From Sedimentisphaeraceae bacterium JB056 (GTDB taxonomy: Bacteria > Planctomycetota > Phycisphaerae > Sedimentisphaerales > Sedimentisphaeraceae): a DNA stretch of 64,000 nt. Shown in pieces: positions 30,001-39,000 of this stretch. The position numbers are program-made. Within the stretch, counting starts at the first letter, position 1, and every line of letters starts with the position of its first letter. Where the stretch lies: contig JBITAJ010000004.1 in assembly GCA_044440125.1 (NCBI GenBank), positions 223,235 to 287,234 of the forward strand. Direction: 5' to 3'.

Positions 30001-33000
30001 CCAATATAGGAGCATTCAGCATAAGCTTTCCAGCATTTTATATTTGATTCTGCATGACAATTATCGATAGTGCTGCCATAGGCTCTTCCAACCAAAGCAC
30101 CAATCTGGCTGTATACTATCCCAAGGTTTGATGTTGAATAAGAAGACATTGTGAATGAAAAGTTCTCAATTGTCAGGTTTTTTATAGTTGCCTGCGAAGT
30201 CTTCCCAAACAAGCCTAAGTAAGACAGCCTATCGTTGGTGTCCTCATAAGCAGATCTATTGAACGCTAAATTACTGATAACATGACCGTTGCCGTCAAAA
30301 ACTCCCGAAAATATGACACCCTGGAAATCATCGACCGCAACATCTGTATCAGGACAAACAACGGCTCCGCTATAAGCGGCTTGAGAAAAATCGATATCAT
30401 TCATCAACTTAAAAACCTTGCCACACCAAATACCGCCATCGTTATCTATTGCTCTAAGTTCAGTAATATTAGTGATTTGATAAGGATTTTCAAGCGTGCC
30501 CTGCCCCGGCCAATAAGGAAGTGGAGTTCCTCCACCCTCGACCAGAGCAAATGAAATACAGATTACAAAAAGACCAATTAAACTGTTTCTTGTTGACATG
30601 GTAAACCTCCCATAATGTGAAACATTAATACTTTACTCCAAAGCCCATTTTACCGCAGTCAACTCCCAATATCAAGGATTGTTTGGAAATTTCAGGCCAT
30701 GCACAATTCGTTTTATGCCTAACTGCTATATATAAAAAACCGGCATATAACCTAAACTGAAAAGATTACAGACTTATCACAATCTTTCTGCAAGCAATTT
30801 TCTGGCGGCATTTATTTCATCTTCTTCAAGCTCAAAATCGCCCTGTCTCGTGCCAATTCCTAATTGCTCAAGTTTAGAATTGCCAAGTGAATGATAAGGA
30901 AGCAGTTCAATCCCCATGCAATTTTCAAGCCTATTGTATATCTTCGCAAGCGCACTGTAATGCTCAATGTTGTCATTATCATTTTTAACAAGAATACATC
31001 GCAATACTGTTACCGCCCCTAAACTGTCAAGCAGCTCAAGATTTCTCATTATCACATCAAGTTCAACACCTGTATTAGCCAAATGCCGGTTACTGTCGGT
31101 ATCTTTAACATCATACAGCCATAGATCAACAAACTCAGCGGCTCTCTGCACATCCTCGCTTTTGGCAAAACCGCATGTTTCTAAACAAACAGTGATATTC
31201 GCTTCTCGGGCAGCCTTAGCAAGCTCTATTGTAAAATCGCTTTGTAATAAAGGCTCACCGCCTGAAATAGTCAGCCCGCCGCATTCATCATAAAAGTCAG
31301 CATCTTTTAGCACTTCGGTCATTACATCTTGAACACTCATCTCCCTTCCGGAAAGTTTTATCGTACCGGAATCGCATACATCCGCGCAGGAAAGACACTC
31401 CCCGCAATCTTCTCTTGCTGAACCGGATAATATGCTTCTTACATCTTCCTTGGGACATACTCGGTCGCAATTACCGCAGTCAATACACATATTGGGAGAA
31501 AACAATAGCTCCGCTGCCATTTTTTTTGATTCTGGATTGTGACACCATCGGCACTTTAACGGGCATCCTTTTAGAAAGACTGTCGTTCTTATGCCAGGGC
31601 CGTCATGCGTGCAAAATCGCTGAATATCAAATACAATACCGTTCATCTACTTATCTACCCAAGCATCCACTAAATTTTCTGCTGCGTTCTGTTGATAATC
31701 ATATCCTGCCACTGCTTATTTAATGTCGCAAACCTTGCCGACCATCCGGCAATTCTGACAGGCAGATTCTGATATTTTTCAGGATGTCTTTGCGCATCGA
31801 TAAGCAAGGCAGTATCAACGACATCCATATGAAGATACCAACCGCCAAGCTTCTGGAAAGTTTTCATAAGAGTCGCCATTGCCAGTTTGCCGTTATCACC
31901 TTTAACACTTGCAGGATGAAGTTTAAGCTCAAGCGTTGCACCACCGGGGCAGCGTGAGAAATCCATCTTGCAGTATGATTTGATAACAGCAGTAGGCCCT
32001 TTCTTATCGCTGTCAGGTGTAGGCGAAAAATTCGTAGCAAGTACATCACCGGAATTATGCCCGGAGAACGTAGCTGACCGGCTGGTACTCCAGCTTATCT
32101 CGCGTCCGAAAGTACTGATACCCGCAGGCATAAATACACCATCAGCTTCTTTCTGAGATGCCACTATTGATGTATAGTCGTTAAACACCTTAACCATCAT
32201 CGCATCAGCCTTCTCATTATCATTACCGTAAGCATCTATCCTGTTAAGCACCAGCCTTCTGAGACTTTCCTGTCCCTGCCAGTTATTGTTTACAATATCA
32301 CAGAATTCCGAAAGTCTAAGCGTTTTCTGCTCATAGACAAGCTCATTAAGCACTGTAAAACTGTTGGCAACATCAGCCATGCCGCCCATATGCGGAGAGT
32401 AAACAGAATATCTGGCACCGCGATTATTATAATCCCTGCCTCTCTCAATACAATCATCGACAAGTATCGAAAGAAGCGGGCAAGGCTGCTTGTTATCTTT
32501 GTCAACCCACCTGTTTCGTGAGATATCAATGTGTTTCTGGTAAACATCTTTAAGCTCATCAGTAAATTTAGCATATAACTGCTCAAAAGAAAGGTCATCA
32601 TCAAGCTTTGTCTTTTGACTTTGCCCAAGAGCTTTCTGCATTACGTCAAGGATATCCATCGGGCGATAAATAAAGGCTGTTTTACCGGGAATAAGAACTT
32701 CCCAACAACCATCATTTGTAAAACCACGAGCCTCTTTTATATCGTAGCCAAATTTAACCAATCCATCAATCACTATCTCTTCATTATAAACAGCAACCAT
32801 TCCACCGCCAAGCCGCTGAACCTCCGCTATCCTTTCAAGCAATCGTTGAGGTGTATTTTTATTAATCCTTACCGCTATAGGAAAATCACTTATATGCAAT
32901 TCTTCAACAATATCCAGCACAAGATAAGTAACATCATTGGTTACATCTTTTCCATTTTCATCAATGCCGCCAAGGATCACATTCTGATAATGCTGCGCAT

Positions 33001-36000: not shown

Positions 36001-39000
36001 GTGATGTGCCAAAAGCCAATTACGCTGACTTGCATGACAGCAAAGCATCTTTTCCTTTATATCGATCTTGGTAGAAATATCAACATGGATTGTAGATTTA
36101 ATCTGCTCGCCATAGATATCACAACCACCAAGCGGATCAGCATAATACAGATACGGCACAAAATCATAAGGCTTGACACCCGGAGTCTCGACATTCGGTA
36201 TTCCACAGGCAAAACATGCAGTCCGAACAAGCGAGGACGTATTCTCATGATCGATAAAGTAATCCTGCGGGCTTGAAGTAAAGACTATCGCAGGTTTTAC
36301 CTTGCGTATAATCTCTATTGTCTTGAGAAGAGAAGGTTTGTCGTACATCACAAAGACATCCTCAAGCTCATTACAATAATACTCTGCATCAAGTAAAGCT
36401 GCCGCCGAAGCAGATTCTGCTCTTCGTATCTCGCTGATTTTTTCACGGCCGTATTCTTTGGAACCGCAATCGCCCGGAGTCATTGTTGCTATTACAATAT
36501 TCCAGCCGGCTTCCTTAAGCAATGCCAGTGTACCGGCTGTCATAAATTCTGTATCATCAGGATGACACAAGAATGATAGGACGGTTTTATTGTCAAAATT
36601 CATCTCAAAATACCTGCTGTAAGCATTGTTGACACTAAGAATATAGAATATAGAAGTTAGAAGAAAGTAAGCAGCGATTACGACTTGCATTATTCTATCT
36701 TCTGAATTCTAAATCCTCGTTTCCTATCGAAACGATAAACATTAAACATTAATAATATCAAAAAAACGCTTCACTTCCATAGCTAAAAGGAGTATCATAC
36801 CCCCAATAAGGAACCTAAAAACATAAACATAACTTCTATAAAACACTTTAATGAACGAAAAAGAGCAATCAAACATAAAAAAGGAATTTGCTCCGGATTC
36901 TACCGGCCATGTCATAGAGGCAAAGTATTTCTATTTCGACCCATCAGAAAGACGCTTGGCTCAAACAAGCATTATGTGCGGGGGGCATGAAAAATGTGCA
37001 TCTGATTTCCGAATTGACAGGCCAAGATTCCCATTTTATGCATTCGTATTCATAGCAAAAGGCAAAGGTTACTACACGTGCGATAATCATAGATATAACC
37101 TTCAATACGGCTCACTGATAATAATGAAACCTGACATGCCGTACATCCTTGAAGCTGACCTCGAAAATCCCATGGAACAATTTCTCGTAATATGCCACGG
37201 AGAAAAATCCAGAGAGCTTATCGAAAAGAATAAGCTCAGCAGTAAACATGTTATAAATATTGCACGGCCGGAAATAACATCAACGCTATTTAAGGAAATA
37301 CTGGAAACGGGATTCCAAAAACCAGAATTTGCGGCGAAAATATGTTCAAACTACCTCGAGTGCATAGTAATGAAAGAAATCAGGGAAAACACCCAGCCGG
37401 AGACCAACGACAGTTCATATCAAAGCTTTCTGAACTGCAAACAGTATCTTGAGGAAAACTTCATAAAAATCAACTCCTGCACGGAGCTCGCCCAGCAATG
37501 CTCATTCGACATACGATACATAGCAAGACTGTTCAAGAAGTACCAAAATACAAGACCTTACGACTATCTGATGAAACTTAAAACAGACAAAGCTCTCAAT
37601 CTTCTGCTGACATCCGACCTGAGCATAAAACGAATAGCATTTATGATCGGATTTTCAGATCCGTATCATTTTTCCCGCATATTTAAAAAACGTTTCAAAC
37701 TCTCACCATCGGAATACAGAGAAAACTTGACAATCTAATGAGATAAACCTAAAATTTAGCCAAAATTAAGATATTTCAGTAGTTTTCGTTAAAAGGATAT
37801 TATGAAAAATTACTACTGCCCTGATTGCCAGTCTGCCATTAGTTTTGATGATATTAATGTTGCAAATGATATTGCGTTATGCCGCAGTTGCGGCAATACT
37901 CACAATTTCAGCATAATATCAAGCATCGTCGCTGATAATTCAAGCCTTAGCATGGGGAAAACGCCCAAACACGTCAAGGTTAAATCGGAGTTCATGAAAG
38001 GCGGTGAAATCAAATACAGCCGCATCTCACCCGGTATTCTTTTTCTGATTCCTTTCACTTGCTTCTGGTCGGGGCTGTCTGTGTACGGCATATATTTAGA
38101 GCCGTGGCTTAAAAAAGGAAGACTGCCGGAGATTCCACAGATGCTTATGGGACTGCCATTCCTGATTGGTACAATCGTTTTGGTATCGATAATCATCTAT
38201 ATGCTTTTTGGAAAAACCGTCATAACCCTGAATAAAGGCAAGGGTGATATTTTTGTAGGTATCGGCATGATCGGCTGGTGCCGTCATTTCAAATACAACA
38301 CACAATCTCAAGTAAGGCTGGTTCCGACAAGTACAAAAGTAAACAATGTCAGAAAATACGGCATAAGAATTTCAACAAATGAAGATGATATCACGTTCGG
38401 AGCATTGATAGAGGATAAGTCCAAACAATACATGATATTGAAACTCAAAGAGCTTATTCGAACCGGAATCTAAGTGCGACATTCAATGGTTATTGATTTC
38501 ATGAGTCGCTGTTTATATAACATTAACGGTTGATTTCGGGAGCAGATACTACAACTATATTATTCTCGTTAACGGTTATCGTGTCATGGTTTACTACACC
38601 ATTGGTCAGATATCCATCATTACACTCTAAAGTTTGCCCATCAGCAAATTCAACTTTGATCAGATAACTTGAATCACCTCTAACAGTAAAGCTGAAATTA
38701 AACTTGCCGCCCGGCTCAATACTGTTAATAAAGATCCTTTGTCCACCAGCATTAACTTCTGCCTTTTTAATTAATTTTCCTGATGCATTTTTAAAAGTAA
38801 AATCGCTCTTCGAATTAGATTTGCAACTTAGAGGTACAATACACATTACCAATAAAAAACATCCCCAGAGAACTTTCTTCTGAATTGCTTTCATTAAATA
38901 CTACTCCTAAAACCAGATTAACAAAATAATGTAGGATTATATATAAATTGAAGACATCTGTCTATTATTAAACCTACTGCCGCAAAACAGTTTAATATTT

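What a model noticed while it worked through the whole genome (the two positions that open the first line are those of the whole stretch)
30777..36690. A widespread PIG-L deacetylase + divergent NagB-fold deaminase pair (no Pfam model) marks an uncharacterised amino-sugar [...]
g00396 is a NagB-fold protein about 20% identical to known glucosamine-6-phosphate deaminases but 71-79% identical across PVC bacteria and Bacteroidota, where it follows a PIG-L deacetylase instead of NagA. It defines a separate N-acetyl-amino-sugar route; in this genome the pair sits beside a glycyl-radical enzyme under 30% identical to any characterised one.
Evidence so far: At least 597 related stretches; best 80 kept. 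PIG-L in 62 of 80 loci, DUF4432 epimerase-like in 29, mannitol-dehydrogenase-like in 26, xylA-like in 17. NCBIfam nagB score 21 against a cut of 237; no PDB sequence hit; model matches NagB at E 3e-17, TM 0.64; invariant MDE, His181 and a GP loop. Genome keeps separate nagA and nagB-like genes. GRE g00394 best Swiss-Prot hit 29.6%.
(Added by a program. Inside this text positions count along the whole contig: contig position 223,235 is position 1 of the stretch shown here. "Call 12" and the like, gene names such as g00115 and contig names such as C1 are that model's own, and its searches are not shown. The text may have been shortened before it was handed on; [...] marks where a part breaks off. 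The agent that wrote the report below was given it as the finding of a first reader that could run no searches.)

Follow-up and report, generated by a model that had tools for sequence, protein, structure and literature searches.

The report
Phosphate-free amino-sugar route; unrelated exported enzyme
A widespread, unstudied two-gene unit probably strips the acetyl and amino groups from free (unphosphorylated) amino sugars, unlike the textbook route, and the radical enzyme next to it is an unrelated neighbour that unexpectedly carries a signal for export out of the cytoplasm.

Summary
The pair is real. The NagB-fold protein (34900-35832) heads a tight family (at least 8000 clusters), and PIG-L lies within 1.5 kb in 103 of 118 assessable loci. 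It keeps NagB's catalytic Asp and His but lacks the TG[GS]T phosphate loop and Lys208. Ketose-type kinases follow it; NagA appears in 2 of 180 loci. 22 of 26 carriers also have a canonical NagB. Best reading: free HexNAc -> HexN -> free ketose + NH3, kinase afterwards; substrate unproven. Its partners in this genome are a Gfo/TIM-barrel operon on another contig sharing an AraC paralogue and operator, not the GRE. The GRE link fails: this GRE was found in 0 of 150 order genomes, 38 of which carry the deaminase, and a duplication scar brackets its cassette. The scan noted both the pair and Tat-bearing GREs before on other DNA; I found neither in print.

The parts
34900..35832 (-). Divergent NagB-fold aldose-ketose deaminase/isomerase, 310 aa; keeps D109 (=Asp72), H181 (=His143), D186 (=Glu148 position), R224 (=Arg172); phosphate loop is CGPIGPTEQ instead of LPTGGTP and no Lys at the Lys208 position
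35845..36603 (-). PIG-L/LmbE-family deacetylase, 252 aa, intact HPDD + H metal motif, no signal peptide; 12 nt upstream of the deaminase
   Evidence: motif definition in PMC4101496
36782..36814 (+). Candidate AraC operator GCTAAAAGGA-N13-AATAAGGAAC; the same 20 bases at the same spacing precede the Gfo/TIM-barrel operon on contig C2 (39814); related copies precede the joined operon in other genomes
36851..37738 (+). AraC (cupin + HTH) regulator divergent from the pair; 53% identical to the AraC at C2:39887-40777
34012..34899 (+). PAS-AraC regulator, divergent from the GRE and convergent on the deaminase; splits the GRE from the pair
31670..33901 (-). Glycyl radical enzyme of an uncharacterised family, 743 aa, GCWE (C399, E401) and RIAGWS (G719) motifs; not part of the amino-sugar route
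33818..33901 (-). Predicted twin-arginine (Tat) signal peptide of the GRE (MDRRNFVK...AKA; cleavage site inferred by eye)
30777..31646 (-). GRE-activating radical SAM enzyme (TIGR02494 308 bits, over cut-off 174); begins MNGIVFDIQRF, no signal peptide visible
27948..28169 (.). Rearrangement scar: an 88-nt copy of the deaminase 3' end (93% identical to 34896-34983) fused through the shared 7-mer GCGACAT to two pieces of the 3' end of the upstream OppC-type permease gene (88-93%); it brackets the 6.9-kb GRE cassette

Best explanation
The pair is the end of a cytoplasmic route that handles amino sugars before they are phosphorylated. The PIG-L zinc deacetylase turns a free N-acetyl-2-amino sugar into the free amino sugar. 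The NagB-fold enzyme opens the ring (His181), abstracts the C2 proton (Asp109) and releases NH3 as NagB does, but on a substrate without a 6-phosphate, giving a free ketose. A ketose kinase (PfkB, FGGY or ketohexokinase, according to lineage) acts afterwards. My single best guess for the substrate is free GlcNAc/ManNAc giving D-fructose (about 40% within this reading; sugars that cannot be 6-phosphorylated, i.e. 6-deoxy, pentose or uronate amino sugars, about 35%; GalNAc/tagatose or rarer ketoses about 25%). In this genome the upstream partners are two Gfo/Idh/MocA dehydrogenases and two xylose-isomerase-like TIM barrels on contig C2, probably doing C3 oxidation/elimination/hydration/reduction or C3 epimerisation. 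The GRE cassette is an unrelated neighbour. Shown: fold, residue changes, gene linkage, coexistence with NagB, shared operator, lack of GRE linkage. Inferred: every catalytic step and the substrate.
For: Fold is NagB. D109 300/300, H181 299/300, D186 300/300, R224 300/300 in 300 family members. All TG[GS]T/Lys-type NagB-fold references (E. coli NagB, AgaI, YieK, three canonical NagBs, a fusion NagB domain, this genome's C17 NagB-like protein and its 6PGL with SGGSS) keep the loop and the Lys, while the family and five sister proteins lack both and form one clade (100/99). In S. mutans NagB the phosphate is held by Ser37, Thr38 and Lys194, and K194A removes nearly all computed binding energy (PMC8369159, passages, simulation). 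In 180 loci: PIG-L 134, NagA 2, ROK 4 (1 within 5 kb), NanK 0; PfkB 60, MtlD-like 48 (47 with PfkB), DUF4432 54, XylA-like 36. Two unrelated PfkB subfamilies (about 27% local identity) and separate MtlD-like subfamilies were recruited downstream in Sedimentisphaerales-type and Bacteroidota loci; a ribulokinase over cut-off follows the gene in L063, a xylulokinase-like gene in L004, and a ketohexokinase (458 bits) plus class I aldolase follows a distant Haloarcula relative. Canonical NagB coexists in 17 of 21 and 5 of 5 carriers. The C2 operon is joined to the pair, whole or in part, in L001, L004/L268, L266, L270, with a shared operator.
Against: No assay. The pocket was judged from alignments, not from coordinates; the register at Lys208 differs between aligners (D261, near G265), and R224 and the near-invariant R267 (299/300) or K180 could rebuild an anion site. 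The G142 and D141 positions next to the catalytic His are also changed (K180, I/T/V179), so the chemistry may differ. Most loci have no kinase: 51 of 133 with at least 2.5 kb downstream carry PfkB, and most of those are one order of kin. The MtlD-like gene was found in only 5 of 21 carriers genome-wide (15 of 280 non-carriers), and the PfkB-DUF4432-MtlD module also occurs without the pair (G284, G299). This genome has no canonical NagB over cut-off. Conservation counts are partly circular because loci were fetched with motifs from these regions. The four-gene Gfo/TIM module is close to the pair in only 6-11 of 188 loci per gene, and its best family matches are all under cut-off.
Confidence: 0.55

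Rival explanations
1. It is a deaminase for a phosphorylated (or otherwise anionic: uronate, sulfonate) amino sugar with a rebuilt anion pocket, e.g. GalN-6-P, ManN-6-P or a hexosaminuronate.
For: R224 kept and R267, K180 invariant. GH123 directly downstream in a few Bacteroidales loci (3 of 180), GH20-like and GH27 neighbours. This genome has UxaC and UxuA.
Against: No upstream HexNAc kinase in the loci; KbaZ/AgaZ in 0 of 180 loci and only weak hits in 3 of 26 carriers; UxaA, UxaC 0 and UxuA 1 of 180 loci; the dehydrogenase neighbour is MtlD-type, with the RxxR..RK motif, not UxuB/UxaB-type; acidic E84 and D261 lie where the phosphate ligands were.
Confidence: 0.25
2. It is simply a divergent GlcN-6-P deaminase, a second or replacement NagB.
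For: Sources label it glucosamine-6-phosphate deaminase/isomerase; the catalytic residues are kept; 4 of 21 carriers, this genome among them, lack a NagB over cut-off; a NagB-PIG-L fusion family exists (NF002557).
Against: 21 bits against 236.9; long branch outside the NagB/AgaI/YieK/6PGL clade; both phosphate ligands lost; 22 of 26 carriers keep canonical NagB; 66-85% identity across phyla points to its own strong constraint.
Confidence: 0.12
3. The pair and the GRE form one pathway in this genome (the GRE acts on the deaminase product or makes its substrate).
For: Adjacent and on the same strand; a related strain appears to keep both blocks side by side (junction bridged by only about 32 nt); the GRE family carries lectin-like LamG inserts in 28 of 120 members, so it may act on sugars.
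Against: An opposite-strand gene lies between them; 1 of 180 loci has any GRE and it is a different one; 0 of 150 order genomes with this GRE against 38 with the deaminase; the one other genome with this GRE in the phylum sample (G016) is not a deaminase carrier; a duplication scar brackets the cassette; the GRE is predicted exported while the pair is cytoplasmic.
Confidence: 0.05
4. The NagB fold here does other chemistry (lactonase, plain isomerase, or deglycase of N-substituted sugars) and the deacetylase partner serves another step.
For: Residues flanking the catalytic His differ (K180; W182), there is a 14-residue insert after the HxAFNDP motif, a 40-residue N-terminal extension and a near-invariant C-terminal EMH.
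Against: It is structurally closer to NagB (Z 21-27) than to 6PGL (Z 18-21); MDE and HxAFN[ED]P are NagB-type, not 6PGL-type; the tight partner is an N-deacetylase, which supplies a free amine.
Confidence: 0.08

Closest known systems
NagA/NagB pathway (GlcNAc-6-P deacetylase + GlcN-6-P deaminase; PDB 1dea, 2bkv, 2ri1)
   Same: Deacetylate, then deaminate/isomerise; NagB fold (Z 27.2); catalytic Asp/His kept.
   Different: The deacetylase is PIG-L, not an amidohydrolase; the phosphate loop and Lys208 are lost; kinases come after, not before; about 20% identity; coexists with NagB.
Thermococcus diacetylchitobiose deacetylase route (TkDAC, LmbE/PIG-L family)
   Same: A PIG-L enzyme deacetylating an unphosphorylated GlcNAc unit in catabolism (PMC4101496, passages); PDB hits at E about 1e-11.
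   Different: There the glucosamine is phosphorylated and deaminated by an SIS-fold enzyme, GlmD (recalled; model NF041128 appears). Here the deaminase has the NagB fold and seems to skip the kinase.
NagB-PIG-L fusion of Bacteroidota/Planctomycetes (PRK02122, NF002557)
   Same: Couples the same two folds.
   Different: The fusion's NagB domain keeps TGST and Lys and groups with canonical NagB (G305 domain); the window proteins score 12 bits (PIG-L) and no hit (deaminase) against a cut-off of 384.
LgdA/B1/B2/C levoglucosan pathway (oxidation, elimination, hydration, reduction)
   Same: Two dehydrogenases (LgdC is Gfo/Idh/MocA) plus two proteins annotated as sugar phosphate isomerases (PMC7676230, abstract and passages); the C2 operon has two Gfo and two TIM-barrel genes.
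   Different: Only family-level likeness: LevoglcsnDh 75 and 31 bits against 650; the best Gfo match is UDP-GlcNAc 3-dehydrogenase (143 and 102 against 450), the best TIM matches are 3-epimerases. No deacetylase or deaminase in the Lgd pathway.
Eliminase-type glycyl radical enzymes (propanediol dehydratase 5i2g, HypD 6vxc, glycerol dehydratase 1r8w, PflD, YbiW)
   Same: Fold (TM 0.80), GCxE and Gly-loop motifs, adjacent activase.
   Different: 19-25% identity, under every NCBIfam cut-off; N-terminal twin-arginine motif in 94 of 120 homologues and a LamG insert in 28; described GREs are cytoplasmic or in microcompartments (recalled).

Membership tests
NagB glucosamine-6-phosphate deaminase (TIGR00502) | Score over curated cut-off | tested here: not met
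   21 bits against 236.9
NagB glucosamine-6-phosphate deaminase (TIGR00502) | NagB/6PGL fold | tested here: met
   Foldseek E 1.3e-16; VIA Z 27.2, rmsd 1.9, 232 residues; hhalign 97.8%
NagB glucosamine-6-phosphate deaminase (TIGR00502) | Catalytic Asp (MDE) and ring-opening His (HxAFN[ED]P); E. coli numbering 72 and 143 recalled | tested here: met
   D109 300/300, H181 299/300, D186 300/300; alignment
NagB glucosamine-6-phosphate deaminase (TIGR00502) | Phosphate-binding TG[GS]T loop and Lys (S. mutans Ser37/Thr38/Lys194) | tested here: not met
   P[IV]GPTEQ and HDNPFG instead; roles from PMC8369159
NagB glucosamine-6-phosphate deaminase (TIGR00502) | Converts GlcN-6-P to Fru-6-P + NH3 | not testable with these tools
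   needs an assay
PIG-L/LmbE deacetylase (PF02585) | Pfam score over cut-off and HXDD + H metal motif | tested here: met
   76.1 bits against 28.2; HPDD and FIDHE in the window protein; H[PA]DDxE in 126 of 133 partners
BshB1 (TIGR04001) | Score over cut-off | tested here: not met
   116 against 182.5
AgaA/AgaS GalNAc pathway | AgaS, KbaZ/AgaZ or tagatose-bisphosphate aldolase in the locus or genome | tested here: not met
   AgaS 0, KbaZ 0, KbaY 1 of 180 loci; PF08013 in 3 of 26 carriers at 75-116 bits
Lgd-type oxidative glycoside cleavage (C2 operon) | Two Gfo dehydrogenases plus two TIM-barrel lyase/hydratase genes, with orthology to LgdA-C | tested here: inconclusive
   Composition met; orthology not shown, all scores under cut-off
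Glycyl radical enzyme superfamily | PFL-like + Gly_radical domains, Cys loop, Gly loop, activase | tested here: met
   (C399, E401, G719 in 121 of 121)
Tat substrate | N-terminal RRxFLK-type motif conserved in the family; TatC in the genome | tested here: met
   94 of 120 against 3.4% of internal windows and 0 of 119 controls; residues 1-47 unstructured in the model; TatC 206 bits
Tat substrate | Actual export to the periplasm | not testable with these tools
   needs fractionation or a reporter fusion; no dedicated signal-peptide predictor was available, and Pfam TAT_signal did not hit the window protein

The most novel reading that the evidence does not exclude
The stretch holds two unrelated undescribed things. 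(1) The first phosphate-independent amino-sugar deaminase, one branch of a larger NagB-fold clade without the phosphate pocket, which gives PVC bacteria and Bacteroidota a way to eat amino sugars that kinase-first routes cannot, such as the rare N-acetyl sugars of bacterial surface glycans (about 0.55 alone). (2) A glycyl radical enzyme that is activated in the cytoplasm and exported folded by Tat, doing radical chemistry on sugars in the periplasm (about 0.6 alone). The probability given is for both together.
Probability: 0.33. Interest if true: 0.85.

Novelty: new variant of a known kind. Interest (0 to 1): 0.63.

Why it matters
All NagB-fold deaminases I know of act on 6-phosphates (recalled). 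A family of thousands of sequences, 66-85% identical across phyla and labelled as GlcN-6-P deaminase in databases, would be a mis-annotated enzyme with a new substrate class and a directly testable activity; it would show how sediment and aquatic glycan scavengers recycle amino sugars, and a free hexosamine-to-ketose enzyme needs no ATP step. Separately, an exported glycyl radical enzyme would move oxygen-sensitive radical chemistry out of the cytoplasm, which a specialist would find surprising.

Tried and rejected
Uronate route (HexNAcA -> fructuronate/tagaturonate): no UxaA/UxaC and one UxuA in 180 loci; lowered, not excluded. GalNAc/tagatose route: no AgaS/KbaZ; lowered. Sialic acid/ManNAc-6-P route: NanK 0, NanE 0, NanA-like 3 of 180. 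Genome-wide profile with the window PIG-L was uninformative: 33 of 301 hits, only 5 in carriers, and it missed partners seen directly; it does show that this PIG-L subfamily also occurs without the deaminase family. A metagenome scan with the divergent member P0123 found nothing. A viral scan with the GRE found nothing. The ESM Atlas gave only automatic names for the deaminase and no lead for the 316-aa protein upstream of this genome's PfkB-MtlD pair. Promoter scan at chance level, 20 found against 19.9 expected. No Rfam hit in the window. No RNA holder listed; the raw-read run laid nothing. A phylum-wide Bacteroidota count could not be made, so Bacteroidota evidence rests on the best-hit loci. 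Fused forms of the deaminase were not searched (lengths 'longer' unused); two long representatives (P0124, P0127) look like frameshift products. No complex prediction was run. Literature: ten searches, judged from listings and abstract starts; none showed this family, a free-hexosamine deaminase or a Tat-exported GRE; subscription journals are not covered, the B. subtilis NagB structure paper was not held, and no supplements were read.

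
Full report
Anatomy. The interval holds, right to left on the minus strand, a PIG-L deacetylase (35845-36603), a 310-aa NagB-fold protein (34900-35832), then a PAS-AraC gene on the plus strand (34012-34899), then a glycyl radical enzyme (31670-33901) and its activase (30777-31646); a second AraC (36851-37738) faces away from the PIG-L. The pair and the GRE are therefore two transcription units. The genome is 99.8% complete and the stretch has even depth in the run that probably is its source.

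The deaminase family. The search returned 8000 relatives among 8000 candidates scored, the best 119 at 76-85% identity. Genome and metagenome scans gave 597 and 552 confirmed stretches, of which 80 each were kept; named loci cover Phycisphaerae, Pirellulales, Bacteroidales, Cyclobacteriaceae, Balneolaceae, Verrucomicrobiota, Omnitrophota, Poribacteria and Armatimonadota. It was found in 21 of 301 genomes sampled from the phylum and 39 of 151 from the order, own genome included. No Pfam family passes and TIGR00502 gives 21 bits against 236.9, but a profile finds ten solved NagBs at E 7.5e-5 to 8.8e-4, hhalign gives 97.8%, and the model (pLDDT 92.2) matches NagB at E 1.3e-16 and Z 27.2.

Active site. 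In 300 members D109, D186 and R224 are invariant and H181 is present in 299; they align with E. coli Asp72, Glu148, Arg172 and His143 (catalytic roles recalled). The phosphate ligands are not kept: LPTGGTP becomes GP[IV]GPTEQ (a two-residue deletion or a Gly-to-Pro change, by aligner) and no Lys stands at the Lys208 position. In S. mutans NagB the equivalent Ser37, Thr38 and Lys194 hold the phosphate (PMC8369159, passages, simulation). The control is informative: E. coli NagB, AgaI, YieK, three canonical NagBs, a fusion domain, this genome's C17 NagB-like protein and its 6PGL all keep the loop and Lys despite wide divergence, while the family, two sisters in this genome, one in G183, two Haloarcula proteins and a Vibrio protein lack both and group together (100/99; family alone 100/100; 35 rows, midpoint root, several long branches). 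Caveats: no coordinates were available, R224, R267 and K180 could rebuild an anion site, and the loci were fetched with motifs that overlap some of these columns.

Neighbourhood. Over 180 loci (80 genome, 80 metagenome, 20 from the phylum sample), PIG-L is present in 134 and within 1.5 kb in 103 of the 118 with enough flank, upstream on the same strand in 116 cases. NagA occurs in 2, ROK in 4 (1 within 5 kb), and NanK, NanE, AgaS, KbaZ, UxaA and UxaC in none. Within 7 kb lie PfkB in 60, MtlD-like dehydrogenases in 48 (47 with PfkB), DUF4432 in 54, XylA-like in 36, DegT in 16; Gfo/Idh/MocA genes occur in 67 loci, 56 within 3.5 kb. Much of this is one operon in kin (FAD protein, XylA, PIG-L, deaminase, PfkB, DUF4432, MtlD), but Bacteroidota loci use a different PfkB and a different MtlD-like subfamily in the same place, and single loci put a ribulokinase or a xylulokinase-like gene there. 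A distant Haloarcula relative is followed by a ketohexokinase and a class I aldolase. These kinases belong to families that act on free ketoses. Against over-reading: only 51 of 133 loci with enough downstream DNA have PfkB, the MtlD-like gene was found in 5 of 21 carriers and 15 of 280 non-carriers, and the PfkB-DUF4432-MtlD module also exists without the pair. In many genomes the pair stands alone, which suggests a product that general metabolism accepts. Canonical NagB over cut-off is present in 17 of 21 and 5 of 5 carriers, though not in this genome, so the family is not a stand-in for NagB in general. KbaZ-like genes appear in 3 of 26 carriers, which speaks against the known tagatose route.

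The real partners here. In close relatives the pair ends an operon AraC / TIM barrel, Gfo, (TIM barrel), Gfo, PIG-L, deaminase (L001, L004 = L268, L266, L270). In this genome those four genes sit on contig C2 (36061-39730) behind an AraC 53% identical to the window's. The two intergenic regions share GCTAAAAGGA-N13-AATAAGGAAC exactly (window 36782; C2:39814). The pattern was read from these two sites, so two hits are by construction, but the genome holds only two more at 3 mismatches and the reversed control none, and related copies at 4 mismatches precede the joined operon in L001 and L004/L268. This may reflect common descent of promoter and regulator as much as present co-regulation; either way it ties the pair to the C2 operon. 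Two Gfo plus two isomerase-like genes recalls the Lgd pathway (PMC7676230, abstract and passages), but orthology is not shown; C3 epimerisation is as possible.

The GRE is not part of it. One of 180 loci has a GRE, at 29% identity. This GRE family was found in 0 of 150 other order genomes, 38 of which carry the deaminase, and in 1 of 300 phylum genomes, a non-carrier. An 88-nt copy of the deaminase 3' end at 27948-28035, fused through a shared 7-mer to pieces of the upstream permease gene's 3' end, brackets the 6.9-kb cassette; such orphan gene-end copies are rare in the genome (20 local hits from 2942 ORFs, most of them paralogue pairs). This is the pattern a single-crossover insertion or tandem duplication would leave (inference); it does not say whether the GRE cassette or the toxin-antitoxin block at 27302-27903 was the newcomer.

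The GRE begins MDRRNFVK. Of its 120 best homologues (53-76% identity apart from one 95% fragment), 94 carry a twin-arginine motif in the first 45 residues, against 61 of 1797 internal windows, 0 of 119 deaminase N-termini and 109 of 2942 ORFs of this genome. Of the other 26, 6 have a single-Arg variant and most of the rest appear to start late. 28 carry an insert of about 200-219 residues, LamG in the one scanned. C399, E401 and G719 are invariant in 121 sequences, residues 1-47 are unstructured in the model, the rest matches eliminase-type GREs, the genome has TatC, its five other GREs lack the motif, and the activase shows no signal. The motif test is a regular expression, and the window's own h-region is only moderately hydrophobic. 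Export is inferred.

Prior art. Ten paper searches (listings and abstract starts only) showed no description of this family, of a free-hexosamine deaminase or of a Tat-exported GRE. The scan's own notes report the pair in two other genomes and Tat-bearing GREs in several; these are unchecked notes, not support. A look-up for the lost phosphate pocket returned nothing.

Verdict. Observation confirmed; a separate amino-sugar route supported; GRE link rejected. Best reading: a phosphate-independent deacetylase/deaminase route (0.55), substrate open, D-fructose-yielding sugars first. New variant of a known kind; interest 0.63.

Noticed in passing
window 31670-33901 (-): [quoted passage not shown] Substrate and neighbourhoods not worked out.
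   Followed up: partly
window 27948-28169: Chimeric scar of the 3' ends of the deaminase and the OppC-type permease gene, joined at a 7-nt microhomology; marks a rearrangement around the GRE cassette.
   Followed up: partly
window 27302-27903 (+): 76-aa antitoxin-like ORF overlapping a PIN-domain gene by one base, in a 33% GC block between the permease gene and the scar.
   Followed up: partly
window 31646-31669, run X2: A related strain has 969 extra bases between the GRE and its activase, room for one more gene.
   Followed up: no
G000 C29:162559-163494 and C11:158955-159887 (L216, L218): A sister NagB-fold family, also without Pfam hit, phosphate loop or Lys208, each followed by a gene like the ceramidase-fold neighbours; one follows a NagA-like gene and precedes an FGGY kinase.
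   Followed up: partly
G183 (L256:5121-6868): The same PIG-L subfamily pairs with yet another sister NagB-fold protein (27% to the family), so the PIG-L/pocket-less NagB coupling extends beyond this family.
   Followed up: partly
G000 C28:116583-119959 (L214); G284, G299: A 316-aa protein with no Pfam or Atlas match heads a PfkB-(DUF4432)-MtlD-like operon, in the place the pair takes in other genomes; possibly an unknown isomerase feeding the same ketose module.
   Followed up: partly
G000 C8:130440-134478 (L215): Second PIG-L with a glutamine-amidotransferase-like gene, a PFK and an SIS protein; a 69% orthologue of the SIS protein lies right after the deaminase in L179. Candidate for this genome's GlcN-6-P deaminase.
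   Followed up: no
G000 C21:172844-180032 (L220): Two further GREs around one activase, beside a class II aldolase and a PfkB.
   Followed up: no
L061, L129, L130, L155, L164, L170, L178, L181, L184: Nine loci hold a second, distinct MtlD-like dehydrogenase near the deaminase, four with an FSA/transaldolase; unexplained.
   Followed up: no
L123 (Haloarcula plasmid NZ_CP142029.1) 6829-11821: Two divergent pocket-less NagB-fold genes annotated as hypothetical, with GlpR, ketohexokinase, class I aldolase, Gfo and ABC genes, in a cultured archaeon: a convenient test case.
   Followed up: partly
window 28217-30599 (-): PEP-CTERM protein and a GLUG-repeat protein lie inside the same cassette as the GRE, both predicted surface proteins.
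   Followed up: no
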